Source: Hormiphora californensis
Taxonomy: Eukaryota > Animalia > Ctenophora
DNA: 64,000 nucleotides
Direction of reading: 5' to 3'
Assembly (NCBI GenBank): GCA_020137815.1
Contig: CM035360.1
Location: 5,890,001 to 5,954,000 of the forward strand
Each line of letters starts with the position of its first letter. The stretch's first letter is position 1. The notes under the pieces were generated by a model, which made no database searches, had not been told where the DNA came from, and was given only the letters and a program-made list of their open reading frames with translations. Shown here piece after piece: positions 2,536 to 63,832 of this stretch. Position numbers and translations under genes: made by a program.

Positions 2536-2620
2536 CTGTCAGAGCATTGGCCTGACCATATTCTCATTTCTTTCAAACAAGGAGTGCACAAAACTGTGGT
2601 CAGAGCAATTGGCCTGACAG
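2536..2620 (+). mobile_element. Micro-transposon family CTGTCAG...CTGACAG, two-box form
   Basis: Two GTCAGAGCA(A)TTGGCCTGAC boxes; perfect 8-bp TSD CTGAAATC. Confidence 0.85.
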
Positions 2621-2662
2621 CTGAAATCTCCATAAATGGTTGAAATAAGAAATTAGGATATA

Positions 2663-58900: not shown

Positions 58901-61900
58901 ATGATAACTTCTCCTTCGTTGCTCCTCCTCCTTCTGCTCTGGACCAGCCCGGCCCTCACTCAGGATGACTGGAGCTGGAAATGGCCGGACACAACTGGAA
59001 CTGATGAACCTATCAATACACCCAACCCAATAAATGATCTCACCATCGATTTTACTGCCATCTTCAATACGGTAAATCCGTCGGATGTCCCGGAAACGGA
59101 TGCCCCGGTTGACCTGACAACGAGAGTTCCCGCGGTAACGGAGCAGATCACCGCGGCAACCGCCCAGCCGTGGGATGACGACAAAAAGCCTCGGATCACC
59201 ACCCATCCCAGGAACGTGACTGTAGCCCCGGGAAGTATCGCTAACTTTAGGTGTGAAGCCACGGGAACCATCAACCCTATGATGGTCATTGTGAAAGAGG
59301 ACAGCGATTTTGAGATCCCTGCCTTCCACAAGGATAACAGGGATGAGTCCGATCAGCCGACCATCGAGCAGGATCTACTAGTTGGACCTGTTACTAAACT
59401 TGATGAGGGGTGGTATGTGTGCATTGCTGCCAACTTCTACGGTAACATCAAATCTAAAGCGTACCTAAAAGTTCTGGACCTGTGTGCAACTGTCACGTGT
59501 AAACCCCCCAAAGTGTGTGTTCAGGACTACAATACCGCCACTGCATCGTGTGCGTGCCCCCGTATGATCTGTGACGAGAACGACTTCGATCCCGTCTGTG
59601 GATCTGACTGCAAGACCCACTACAACCCCTGCACCTTCAACCAAACAAGCTGTGAGAATGACTATGATTCCAGCACCGTTCTCTTCAAGGGGCAATGTGC
59701 AGCTGCTGTGTTCACCGAGCCAGTGGTGGATCTGCTTAACGATGTGGAGATGATTGTGGATGAGGAGGATACGGTCAAGTTTAGGGCACGGATCGGAGGA
59801 AACCCTCTCCCCTCTGTGGAGTGGCTAAAAGTTGACAAAGATGGGGAAATAATGGAAAGCGTAGGAAAAGGTAAGAGCTTTTCAAATTCTTCAATTTGGC
59901 ATAATAATCCCCGTTCGAGATTCAGTTAAATGGCATTTCCACTTGTCAGCTGTCGCAAAAATGAATTAGCGTAAGAAAAATAGAAACAGACGACAAAGGA
60001 AAGAGTGAGAGAGATAAGGAGAGAAATCAACTAAACCCAATATTGTACAATTTTGACATATTAAATTGCTTCTTCATGTTACATGATCATAATACTTATA
60101 ATATTAATTATACCAAAACTAATTGAAATTAGTAGGCCGGAAAGGTTGCCCTATGATTTGAGCTACATTTGCCACCGTAACTTTCATGGGGTACAGATGC
60201 TTCGTTTAGCTTCAAAAGGGAGTTTACTGGTGCCAAAGGTAGCTCAAATCATAGGGCAACCTTTCCGGCCTACTAATTTCAATTAGTTTTGGTATAATTT
60301 GCATCATTTTTGGGATTTTTTATCCATTTAGATTGTAGTAGAAAAAGTACGGAGAGGATGGAATCGGAAAGTTAAAATTTTTTCATTTTTGACGTCATTT
60401 TGACGTCATAACGCGACGTCACAACGTTATGACGTCATTATAATTACGTAATCTCATCGGGATTACCTAGATGAAGATATTGACCAAGTTTGATATCGAT
60501 TGGATGAGATTTGAGTCCGCTATGGCGAAAAAACCCATATCGTCATATCTGTTTTTAAACAGTCATAACACTTTAGACGCGTTTTAAGACCCTTATACGT
60601 CTAGTTTTGAAAATTCGCAATGCAGCTTCTGAAAGTTCAGACAATTCTCTTTCCGTGATATAGTCTTCGTTTTTCGATTAGAATCCGTCTTCAGGGTGTA
60701 AATTGAGCTCAAAGAATTTTGGTCAGAGTCTGAAAAATGGCGACTTTAAGACGTTCTGTAGGACGTTCCTGGCGATGAAAAGGGACCCCACCTCAACTAA
60801 TACACACACATCCAGTAGATCTACCAGCTGTGAAAACGGGAAATTGCTATCTCTTTTCGTTTGGCGTGAATATGGTTTATAAAAAGCGTCTATCCTATGC
60901 GCAGTGACAGACCGCGCGTGCGCATTGCGCGCACACGCGGTCTGTTACACTGAATCTTCAGCAAATGGGACCAGTCTGTAACTTCCGTCCCAGATGAGAT
61001 AGAGACTTGAAATTTTAAACTTAAGTAAAAGACCCCAAGCCGGGTATACATTCCAAATTTCAAGTCAAACGGATGAAAGGGAGCGACGCTATAACCTTTC
61101 GAAATCCGGTTTTTCAGGCAAAACACCCATAAAACGTATAACTGCGTTTCTGGCGGCGCTTTTGGGGGGAGGGGGAATGGCAACCTTTGCGCTTGCCAGC
61201 GCAGTGATAATATGCTAGATAGCACACCAAAAGGTTTCGCTTCAAGCAATTTGGAACTAGCGAAAATCGAGATTACTCGGTTTTTGCTAGATCCAAGTCA
61301 TGCAGTGTCTGCATATAGTACAACTTTATACAAGTACTGCTAACGATGACCTCTAACCAGTTGTTTTCTCTCTCTCTCTCTCTCTCTCTCTCTCTCTTTC
61401 TCTCTCTCTCTCTCTCTATCTCTCTATCTCTCTCTATCTCTATCTCTCTCTATCTCTATCTCTCAAAGGTGAATGATGTTTGAGGTAAGAAGGTGCTAAA
61501 TGTTGCACCTGTAAAACACATCTGAGACTCAGTATAAAGGAAGAAAGCCATTAAATACAACCGTTTAGTACACTTGGGGGGGTTTAAATTGTTTTTTCTC
61601 AAATCTTCTTCGTACATGACTGGCAATACTGTAATACTAATACGGGACGTCGATACGAAGCACGTGTTAAATTTCAAATCTGTCACAATGTTAATGAAAG
61701 TTGGTTCAACCATTAAAATTTATTGGACAATTTAATTAGAGGACCCCTTCCAACTTACATCACACAACTTCAACTTATTTATTTTATCATCATTTGGGGG
61801 ATTATTCCGATAAATTTAGATTCCTTTCTTGATTGTAATGGCTGAATGCCAAGGCCCCAAAAATACTATCAGAAAATTGGCCTGACCCTATTCGGAGCGC

Positions 61901-63832
61901 CGAGCGTACAAGAGCCGCGGTCATAGTATTGATCTGACAGTCAAAAGATGATATTTAATTGCTAACAGCTACCTCCAACCTCAGGTGTAGAGATTGTCAT
62001 TCCCTCCGTGACCCCCGCCATGTCGGGAAGATACGTTGCCAGGGCTACCAACTGTGAGACCGATCATCAGTTTAGCAGGAGCTTCGTTTTAGAGGTACAG
62101 CCCCATGATTTCTAATGGGATTGGTATCCACTATGTAACCCACTTGTTGCCCTTAAGACATGCACCTTCACTGCACTGTGCAGGTTGAATTGAACTGAAT
62201 TTTAATTGAGTAACTAAAAGACTGCCCTCTCATCTCCGAACAGTGTGTGCGATGTTTTTACGAACCATCAATTTATAGGTGCTTATAGAAATGATGTTCT
62301 CTTTTAATTTTGTAACAACTTCATTATCTAGGTTGAGCCAAAGCCAGTTGAACCAGCGAAAGAGGTTGATACCAAGGTGAATGTGTGCAGTATATTCGGG
62401 GACCCCCATATTCTAACATACGACGCTCACACCTACAACTTTGCTGGTAAGTTGTTACTCACACTGCAGGCAGGTAGTCGAATACAGTTTACTAAACTAT
62501 TATAGTGTTATAGTGTAAGTAAACTATAGTCTGACTAAATATATGTAGGTAAACCTTAGCTATTGTTAGTGTAAATTTAGAGGAAGGTGCACTACAAATC
62601 ATAACCGCGATTCAAGAAAGCTTTCTGATACCCAAGCCTATGTTTTAATTTCCTTGATCCCCGGCCACACAGGGAGTCCTACTGCCTAAATAATTAATTT
62701 TATGCTTTTTTATACTAATCCTATGCCTTTTTTTGGCTAACTCCTGTCAGAGCATTGGCCTGACCCATTCTCGTTTCTCGGAGCGCGAGAACTGTGGTCA
62801 GAGCATTGGCCTGACAGGCTAACTCAGTACTTCTTGGAAAAGTGGGGATATTATTGGAACTTGAATAAAAGTTTTACATCTTCTATCTTCCAGGGGAGTG
62901 CACGTATTTGTTATCAATGGATTGTACCAACTTTGTCTGGCTTGTGTATGGTGACTTCACACCCTGTGGAGCTGGAACGTGTCTTGAGCAGGTATAGTAT
63001 TGTGGACCTTTTATTGGGACGTCACCGGTCACATAAAAGTACAGTCGGACTCCAAGTTTACAATTGGTAGTACCAACCTGTTACCTTCTGATTGTGTGAA
63101 CCGAGGCCGGCATAACAACCAACAGTTTACTTGGTGACGAAGCTACCCCTCGCCATCGGGATAGCATCACAATTTCGTTACCAACAGTTTACCAGCTCCA
63201 AATTTTATAACCGTAACCCCGATTCACCGAATAAATAACTTTCCCCGATATGGTAGCAATAACTCAATAACTGTGCACGCTGATTTACCCTGCTGTAATC
63301 ATCGTTTCCCGAGAAACTCGGCAAATATAATTCTCGACTAGCTGCTATACGTAGTTACAATAAATACTGAAAGGTAGTATGATGCTACTAGCTCTCTCAA
63401 GTTGTCGTAATGGTGATTTAGTAGTAAAATAATTTCGAAAATTACACTTTTCCCTCTGACTCTCTCTCTCTCCCCCTCCAGCTCTCTCTCCCTCCAGCTC
63501 TCTCCCTCCAGCTCTCTCCCCCTCAAGCTCTATCCCTCTCCATATCCCTCTACCCACTGATCTATCTCCCACGGCAGGTTACGATATTCCATACCCCTCT
63601 ACCCCCTCTATTTCACTATCTCCATATCCTTCTACCCTCTCTATCTCCCACGGCAGGTTACGATATTCATTAACCAGCGGCCCGTCATCCTGATGAGAGG
63701 ATGGATAATAAACATCGACGGAGAGAAGAGGGAGTTTATACAGGGGGAGACAGTGAACACTGAGAACATGGTGTTCACATTCGATGGGATGATCCTTACC
63801 GGTCGGAATGACGACATTGGACTAACTATCAG
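58901..63832 (+). CDS. Secreted multidomain protein: signal peptide, Thr/Pro-rich linker, Ig, follistatin-N/Kazal, Ig, VWD (3' incomplete); exons 58901-59870, 61985-62094, 62332-62446, 62894-62991, 63657-63832
   Basis: MITSPSLLLLLLLWTSPALTQ signal; KPRITTHP..FRCEATG..DEGWYVCIAAN (Ig); CATVTCKPPKVC..CACP..PVCGSDCKTHYNPC (FOLN/Kazal); GNPLPSVEWLK..GRYVARATN (Ig); CSIFGDPHILTYDAHTYNFAGECTYLLSMDC (VWD). Junctions are in phase. Confidence 0.88.
60107..61208 (+). mobile_element. Helentron/DINE-1-like element, copy 2, in the first coding intron of the Ig/VWD gene
   Basis: Reverse-complement homolog of 51073-52175 with the same ends. Confidence 0.7.
62744..62817 (+). mobile_element. Micro-transposon, two-box form (a degenerate copy also at 61866-61940)
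   Basis: TSD GCTAACTC on both sides. Confidence 0.85.

What the first reader, a model, noticed from the sequence alone, without database searches (positions are those of the whole stretch)
2536..62817. Family of 23-88 bp micro-transposons built from a recombination-site-like box, each with its own 8-bp TSD
Seen: at least 14 copies start CTGTCAG and end CTGACAG. Most are flanked by different, exact or near-exact 8-bp duplications (CTGAAATC 2536, TGTAAGAC 4417, ACTCCACA 7682, GAGGTGCA 8456, AGCAATTG 10966, CATCACAC 22222, ACCATATT 34079, GCTAACTC 62744). The long form is two directly repeated boxes GTCAG-AGCATTGGC-CTGAC (inverted arms, asymmetric 9-nt core) around a variable 15-45 bp middle. 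The short form (7682, 57372, 58082) is a single 23-bp box, which is exactly what recombination between the two boxes would leave. Known: 8-bp TSDs typify hAT, P and Merlin elements, but their ends are usually YA, CA or GG rather than CTG, and MITEs are normally much longer. Inference: either an extremely small mobile unit, or a cassette that collapses to a solo box like a solo LTR or lox scar, mobilised by an unidentified enzyme.
Basis: partly seen in the sequence, partly recalled or inferred. Interest (0 to 1): 0.8.

Follow-up and report, generated by a model that had tools for sequence, protein, structure and literature searches.

The report
Comb-jelly mini-transposon collapsing to 23 bases
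This DNA, likely from a comb jelly, carries 15 copies of a very small jumping element (64-88 bases, plus 23- and 26-base remnants), most flanked by their own 8-base target duplication; it is likely moved by a still unidentified cut-and-paste transposase, and the remnants likely arise by deletion between its two repeated end boxes rather than by jumping alone.

Summary
The family is real. The window holds 15 copies; of the 14 with both ends, 8 have exact and 11 at least 7/8 eight-base target duplications (chance 0.6% each). An allele in a second sample restores the duplication of a twelfth. Eight further complete copies lie in marine contigs, three in mRNAs carrying the ctenophore spliced leader, so the host is likely a comb jelly. 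Read depth suggests thousands of copies. The long form (64-98 bp) is best read as a very small MITE: imperfect ~31-bp inverted ends, each holding a near-palindromic 19-bp box with the cores in the same direction. Young copies fold as one hairpin. Deleting between the two boxes gives the 23-mer exactly; deleting between two CTGT words gives the 26-bp copy; other loci show intermediate middles. So the short forms are most likely deletion products. No empty, solo or double alternative allele appeared at the 7 loci examined, so collapse was not caught and solo mobility is not excluded. A lox-type recombinase is unlikely. No transposase partner was found; the CTG ends fail Merlin and Kolobok tests and, from recall, hAT and P. 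Verdict: a new MITE variant, like a miniature KolobokP.

The parts
2536..2620 (+). long form, 85 bp, duplication 8/8
4417..4442 (-). 26-bp form (inner CTGTG word plus right box), duplication 8/8; same form in both samples
   Evidence: contigs of X1, X3, X5 span it without gaps
7682..7704 (+). 23-bp solo box, duplication 8/8; solo in both samples
   Evidence: X1, X5, X6 span it
8292..8366 (-). long form, 75 bp, diverged, duplication 7/8
   Evidence: spanned in 4 of 4 runs
8456..8524 (+). long form, 69 bp, young, duplication 8/8; folds as one hairpin (z -6.0)
   Evidence: one search shows the left junction in 4 of 4 runs
10966..11053 (-). long form, 88 bp (longest in the window), duplication 8/8, just downstream of a homeobox exon
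11835..11914 (+). long form, 80 bp, duplication 6/8
22222..22285 (+). long form, 64 bp, diverged left box, duplication 8/8
34079..34146 (-). long form, 68 bp, both boxes perfect, duplication 8/8
41312..41375 (+). long form, 64 bp, 6-bp deletion in left box, duplication 7/8
57104..57164 (-). truncated copy, right box broken off at 57104, where contigs of the second sample continue into other sequence
   Evidence: missing piece not found in 40000-57100
57372..57394 (+). 23-bp solo box; duplication 2/8 in the window, 7/8 in an X6 allele with 5 more bases on the left
58082..58104 (-). 23-bp solo box with one substitution, duplication 7/8; solo in both samples
   Evidence: bridged in 4 of 4 runs
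61866..61940 (+). long form, 75 bp, old and diverged, duplication 5/8
62744..62817 (+). long form, 74 bp, both boxes perfect, duplication 8/8

Best explanation
These are copies of one non-coding element of 64-98 bp with imperfect inverted ends and 8-bp target duplications, likely a non-autonomous DNA transposon (MITE) moved in trans by an unidentified DDE transposase, whose 23- and 26-bp forms are likely left in place by deletion between internal repeats. Shown: the copies, their ends, the 8-bp duplications at unrelated targets, the two 19-bp boxes with same-direction cores in 17 of 17 long copies, and that deletion between the boxes or between two CTGT words reproduces both short forms. Inferred: the transposase pairs the two ends and cuts the target with an 8-base stagger; the single strand folds into a hairpin during replication or repair, which brings the boxes together and favours slippage or annealing between them; the target duplication survives, so a solo looks like a 23-bp insertion. 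Inferred: a 23-bp piece is too short to hold two transposase-bound ends.
For: Duplication signal only at 8 bp. 16 of 22 complete copies (window plus loci) have >=7/8. Young long copies fold as one hairpin, z -3.6 to -6.0. Box-to-box deletion of copy 34079 equals solo 7682 exactly; CTGT-to-CTGT deletion differs from copy 4417 by 1 base. Contigs from other loci show middles of about 11, 14, 19 and 28 bp (tables 5c), so sizes form a ladder down to the solo. Long forms outnumber short ones 17 to 5 among complete copies. MITEs are given as about 80-500 bp and 80-120 bp mariner MITEs transpose in vitro (PMC2642840, passages). Solo formation between terminal direct repeats of a DNA transposon is proposed for KolobokP (PMC9587614).
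Against: No locus was caught with a long allele and a short allele: 0 of the 4 short-form loci (7682, 57372, 58082, 4417) and 0 of 2 complete long loci examined, in two samples, from contigs that drop alleles and with cut tables. No empty allele either, so recent activity is not shown. No autonomous element or transposase was found. Four of the longer or older copies do not fold significantly (z -0.6 to -2.2) and the alignment shows no covariation (term +0.18, 1 of 11 pairs with a double change), so the hairpin step rests on young copies only. In KolobokP, solo repeats appear to excise on their own.
Confidence: 0.7

Rival explanations
1. The 23-bp box is itself a mobile unit with 7-bp inverted ends, and the long form is a composite of two boxes, as in KolobokP; solos insert on their own.
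For: All 4 solos and the 26-mer carry 7/8 or 8/8 duplications once the X6 allele is counted. Solos stay solo in both samples at 3 of 3 window loci. Solo boxes are 0-1 change from the commonest box. KolobokP solos are inferred to excise (PMC9587614).
Against: In-place deletion keeps the duplication too. The inner ends of the two boxes in long copies lack the terminal dinucleotide, so neither is a complete unit. The 26-mer has a different left end. The four solos share no derived change. 23 bp is far below the 80 bp shown to transpose.
Confidence: 0.17
2. The element amplifies through a single-stranded hairpin (copy-out, REPIN-like) or an RNA copy with 19-23-bp terminal repeats (a minimal TRIM), not by ordinary cut-and-paste.
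For: Young copies are hairpins. Copies sit in 3' UTRs of three mRNAs. Direct terminal repeats with solos recall LTR elements. REP doublets are the mobile unit and singlets their remnants (PMC3116915, passages). End-to-start joins with 8-9 bases between appear in other-locus contigs (table 5c; only 21-23 letters on the short side).
Against: No covariation. 8-bp random duplications point to a DDE enzyme; LTR integrases give 4-6 bp (recalled). A 22-56-bp middle leaves little room for priming signals; none was tested. No Rfam or tRNA match in the window.
Confidence: 0.1
3. The box is a site-specific recombination site (lox- or FRT-like) and solos are recombinase scars.
For: Inverted arms around an asymmetric 9-bp core, same direction in 17 of 17 long copies, which is the layout that gives excision.
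Against: Arms are only 5-7 bp. Targets are unrelated and each has a new 8-bp duplication, which tyrosine recombinases do not make (established knowledge, recalled). The 26-bp form and intermediate middles break outside the core. No match in IMG/VR, GTDB genomes, plasmids or phages.
Confidence: 0.03

Closest known systems
MITEs of TIR DNA transposons, such as the 80-bp human mariner MITE (PMC2642840, passages)
   Same: Short, non-coding, high-copy, near-palindromic, with a fixed-length target duplication
   Different: Many copies are 64-75 bp, below the 80-bp lower end given there; ends are imperfect because the 9-bp core is in the same direction at both ends; 8-bp rather than TA duplication; collapses to 23-26 bp
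KolobokP (Kojima and Bao 2022, PMC9587614; abstract, background and passages read)
   Same: DNA transposon with terminal direct repeats that each carry inverted ends; solo repeats flanked by target duplications; same open question of recombination versus solo transposition
   Different: Its repeats are about 450 or 660 bp, ends RR..YY, duplications 3-5 bp, and it codes a transposase and a His-Me nuclease; here boxes are 19-23 bp, ends CT..AG, 8-bp duplication, no coding partner known
Zisupton and Dileera (KDZ) elements (PMC12730594, PMC11343200, passages)
   Same: 8-bp target duplications; inverted ends vary or can be absent
   Different: Known autonomous members are 6-11 kb; their terminal bases could not be compared (founding paper not held); no KDZ transposase linked here
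Merlin (PMC8101967, passages)
   Same: 8-9-bp duplications, sometimes very imperfect inverted ends, present in three ctenophore genomes
   Different: Merlin ends are 5'-GG; this family begins with CT. A GG-ended element with a 9-bp duplication at 13199-13561 shows what Merlin-type ends look like in this window
REPINs of bacteria (PMC3116915, passages)
   Same: Two short palindromic units form a hairpin doublet, proposed as the mobile unit, with singlets as remnants
   Different: Bacterial, moved by RAYT tyrosine transposases, units inverted; a random 8-bp duplication was not mentioned in the passages seen

Membership tests
MITE (non-autonomous TIR element) | short and non-coding | tested here: met
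   64-98 bp long forms
MITE (non-autonomous TIR element) | terminal inverted repeats | tested here: met
   about 31-bp imperfect inverted ends, outer 7 bp perfect; hairpin fold in young copies
MITE (non-autonomous TIR element) | fixed-length target duplication | tested here: met
   8 bp; 16 of 22 complete copies at >=7/8
MITE (non-autonomous TIR element) | high copy number, dispersed | tested here: met
   15 per 64 kb; contig depth about 2,000-3,000 times flank depth in the 8417-8560 bin, a rough indicator only
MITE (non-autonomous TIR element) | autonomous partner with the same ends | not testable with these tools
   no genome held; none in the window (22 of 41 long frames scanned) or in 11 metagenome loci
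Merlin | 8-9-bp duplication | tested here: met
   PMC8101967
Merlin | 5'-GG termini | tested here: not met
   ends are CT..AG
hAT | 8-bp duplication | tested here: met
   second base is T in all copies
hAT | target bias T at 2 and A at 7 (recalled for hobo-type elements) | tested here: inconclusive
   T at 2 in 9 of 16, A at 7 in 3 of 16
P element | 5'-CA termini (recalled) with 7-8-bp duplication | tested here: not met
   duplication fits, termini are CT
Zisupton / Dileera (KDZ) | 8-bp duplication | tested here: met
   PMC12730594
Zisupton / Dileera (KDZ) | terminal sequence and KDZ transposase | not testable with these tools
   founding paper not held; Repbase and Dfam not available; no long copy
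MuDR | 8-10-bp duplication (recalled), variable ends, MULE transposase | tested here: inconclusive
   length compatible; no partner to test
KolobokP | terminal direct repeats with own inverted ends, and solo repeats | tested here: met
   17 of 17 long copies have same-direction boxes; 4 solos; inner ends are incomplete
KolobokP | RR..YY termini, 3-5-bp duplication, 450 or 660-bp repeats | tested here: not met
Tyrosine-recombinase site (lox/FRT type, Crypton) | inverted arms around an asymmetric core | tested here: met
   5-7-bp arms, 9-bp core; arms shorter than recalled for loxP
Tyrosine-recombinase site (lox/FRT type, Crypton) | insertion without a new random target duplication (recalled) | tested here: not met
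   a different 8-bp duplication at each locus
LTR element / TRIM | 4-6-bp duplication (recalled) | tested here: not met
   no signal at 4, 5 or 6 bp
LTR element / TRIM | primer-binding site and polypurine tract | not tested
   middle is only 22-56 bp

The most novel reading that the evidence does not exclude
The 23-bp box is an independently mobile DNA transposon, about a third the size of the smallest MITE shown to move, and the family is driven by an undescribed ctenophore DDE lineage with CTG ends and 8-bp duplications that builds composite elements from such boxes.
Probability: 0.17. Interest if true: 0.8.

Novelty: new variant of a known kind. Interest (0 to 1): 0.45.

Why it matters
It is a very abundant element at or below the stated lower size limit of MITEs, in a likely ctenophore, with ends that fit none of the 8-bp-duplication superfamilies I could test. 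It gives a natural size ladder (23, 26, about 53-60, 64-98 bp) for asking how short a cut-and-paste substrate can be. It also warns that a tiny insertion with a perfect target duplication can be a collapsed MITE. If solos prove mobile it would be a record-small transposon; if the partner is a new transposase lineage it would extend the classification. Elements this short are likely missed by standard repeat finders (inference).

Tried and rejected
Whole-genome search: no genome held. Box string in papers: 0 papers for three 15-mers. Searches for Zisupton termini, smallest transposons and ctenophore MITEs listed no description of this family; I saw listings only for most. Böhne 2012 not held; two Repbase reviews gave no table of termini in the passages seen. 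IMG/VR 0, GTDB 0, plasmids and phages no match. Of 11 metagenome loci, 4 (L001, L003, L007, L008) were dropped as chance 19-mers without the flanking family sequence, and L004 has only a left end on a low-coverage, chimeric-looking contig with no partner duplication. An X6 contig ending at 4443 first looked like a long allele of the 26-mer; its unaligned part is overhang past the stretch start, so this was rejected. The idea that one core was flipped from a perfect-inverted-repeat ancestor found no support: 0 of 17 long copies have inverted cores. Covariation test negative. The ctenophore loop-anchor motif has two CpGs (PMC12221973, passages); the box has none, the logo was not visible and the middle was not tested. 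Protein searches for a named host gave only unnamed close hits. The spliced leader is not in the window itself (best 9 mismatches of 26). Solo-to-long ratio could not be read from contig depth. No supplements were opened; supplementary repeat libraries of ctenophore genome papers may hold this family.
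Full report
Observation. The window is animal DNA: 42% G+C, many microsatellites, and exons of a homeobox gene, a class C GPCR and an Ig-Kazal protein (22 of 41 long frames scanned). 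No Rfam family or tRNA was found. The 19-bp box GTCAGAGCATTGGCCTGAC occurs 20 times at up to 3 mismatches, against a mean of 0.0 in 30 order-2 Markov simulations. A profile built from 17 long copies finds 15 copies at E<=1.1e-4: 10 long (64-88 bp), 3 solos of 23 bp, one of 26 bp, and one truncated copy. Of the 14 with both ends, 8 have an exact 8-bp duplication, 11 at least 7/8 and 12 at least 6/8. The null rates are 0.0025 and 0.0058. Mean flank identity is 0.88 at length 8 and 0.14-0.40 at all other lengths from 2 to 12. Only 7 of 14 have both terminal heptamers exact. One search had three boundaries off by 1-2 bases; one search holds the corrected table.

Anatomy. A long copy reads CT, box, middle, box, AG. 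The 9-bp core points the same way in both boxes in 17 of 17 long copies. The middle is not random: it begins with a CC-ATTCTC motif and ends with a GAGAAC-NGNG motif. These extend the inverted ends to about 31 bp, broken mainly by the core. Young copies fold as one long hairpin (z -6.0, -4.9, -3.6 for 8456, 34079, 62744); longer or older ones fold weakly (z -0.6 to -2.4). The alignment shows no covariation, so the ends look conserved as sequence, as protein-binding sites would be. Among 16 good duplications, positions 2 and 5 are A/T in 14 and 15, and position 1 is C/G in 14: a soft bias, no fixed target.

Other loci and host. An exact scan of metagenome contigs gave 11 loci. Four are chance matches without family flanks and were dropped. 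Six hold 8 complete copies (7 long, 64-98 bp; 1 solo), 5 of them with >=7/8 duplications; L004 has only a left end. L006, L010 and L011 are mRNA-like contigs with the element behind the reading frame. Their 5' ends match the ctenophore spliced leader printed in PMC8527503 (passages). The window itself has no leader, so the host is inferred to be a ctenophore from the shared family. Earlier unreviewed notes on this genome say the same. IMG/VR, GTDB, plasmids and phages gave nothing.

Other individuals. Six runs from two samples hold the locus, as contigs only; one sample may be the assembly source. I laid four runs on each of two stretches, covering 7 of the 15 copies. In one search, contigs span the 26-mer (3 of 4 runs), solo 7682 (3 of 4) and long copy 8292 (4 of 4) in the window's form, and enter 8456 from its left flank (4 of 4). 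In one search, solo 58082 is bridged in 4 of 4 runs; solo 57372 is crossed in 3 of 4, with 27-29 letters on the right, just under the tool's 31-letter rule. No empty allele, no long allele at a short locus and no short allele at a long locus was listed. Contigs drop alleles and the tables were cut (9 indels, 27 joints not shown), so this is weak. One X6 contig has five more bases left of solo 57372, turning its 2/8 flanks into 7/8. Depth in the bin over copy 8456 is about 2,000-3,000 times flank depth, roughly 4,400-6,400 single-copy equivalents; the tool warns that this is no copy number, so I take it only as 'thousands'. Contigs from other loci show middles of about 11, 14, 19 and 28 bp and longer variants, and end-to-start joins with 8-9 bases between (tables 5c; short sides of 20-23 letters).

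Mechanism. A different 8-bp duplication at every unrelated target is the mark of a staggered cut by a DDE transposase (established knowledge). With no coding capacity the element must be moved in trans. Deleting between the two boxes of copy 34079 gives solo 7682 letter for letter, and deleting between the terminal and inner CTGT words gives copy 4417 with one difference. Both short forms thus sit on repeats of the long form, at the bottom of a size ladder. I infer slippage or strand annealing, helped by the hairpin, with the duplication left intact. MITEs are given as about 80-500 bp and 80-120-bp mariner MITEs transpose in vitro (PMC2642840, passages); 23 bp is unlikely to hold two bound ends (inference). 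This is not proven: collapse was not caught at any locus, and KolobokP solos appear to excise by themselves (PMC9587614). I give in-place collapse 0.7, solo mobility 0.17, a hairpin or RNA route 0.1 and a site-specific recombinase 0.03.

Comparison. It works like a MITE and meets the four MITE features I could test. It works like a miniature KolobokP but fails its termini, duplication length and repeat size. Merlin is present in ctenophores but has GG ends (PMC8101967, passages). hAT and P termini, from recall, do not fit. Zisupton and Dileera make 8-bp duplications (PMC12730594, PMC11343200, passages) and MuDR can (recalled); these remain open because their ends could not be compared and no long copy was found. 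REPIN doublets and singlets are a bacterial parallel (PMC3116915, passages).

Novelty. No held paper contains the box string, and the topic searches listed no description; Repbase and Dfam could not be searched, so a database entry cannot be excluded. Earlier scan notes hold no look-alike. Verdict: a real, abundant, unusually small MITE family with unassigned ends and a solo form; new variant of a known kind; interest 0.45. The bold reading, a self-mobile 23-bp transposon, has probability 0.17 and would deserve 0.8.

Noticed in passing
window 13199-13561: Palindromic element with GG..CC ends and an exact 9-bp duplication, the hallmarks of a Merlin-type MITE.
   Followed up: partly
window 2657-3964, 1356-2047, 24165-24573, 44371-44818, 51970-52175, 60106-60299: Further large inverted-repeat elements (arms 71-413 bp, 93-98% complementary); the last two share ends. 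The window is dense in MITE-like families.
   Followed up: no
window about 6390-6600 and 4991-5029: Very high contig depth marks two more high-copy repeats.
   Followed up: no
window 57395-57420: The target duplication of solo 57372 overlaps the first bases of another high-copy repeat with a mariner-like end (label recalled), so this element likely inserted into that repeat's terminus.
   Followed up: partly
window 57103/57104: Polymorphic breakpoint inside the truncated copy: contigs of the second sample continue leftward into different sequence, and the window's version is at about half depth in X3.
   Followed up: partly
other-locus contigs laid on window 7704 and 8455: End-to-start joins of two copies with 8-9 bases between, as tandem insertion would leave (table 5c); short sides only 21-23 letters.
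   Followed up: no
target duplications of 16 copies: Position 1 is C/G in 14 of 16 but position 8 in only 7 of 16 in element orientation; a possible oriented target bias, small sample.
   Followed up: no
window 52175-53365 (+) and 195-1376 (-): A GIY-YIG frame (Pfam E 2.4e-5, Penelope-like by recall) and a 393-aa frame without Pfam match that looks like a retroelement zinc-knuckle protein.
   Followed up: no
window 5316-5344: Weak match to the element's middle motif (E 2.9), perhaps a decayed sixteenth copy or a sister family.
   Followed up: no
L011:1-600 and 671-693: Leader-spliced mRNA with an in-frame TGA after a CIS motif, resembling selenoprotein T (recalled), with a solo box in its 3' UTR.
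   Followed up: no
L004:90-125: Family left end followed by unrelated sequence and bacterial-looking frames on a low-coverage contig; truncated copy or chimera, a long element not excluded.
   Followed up: partly
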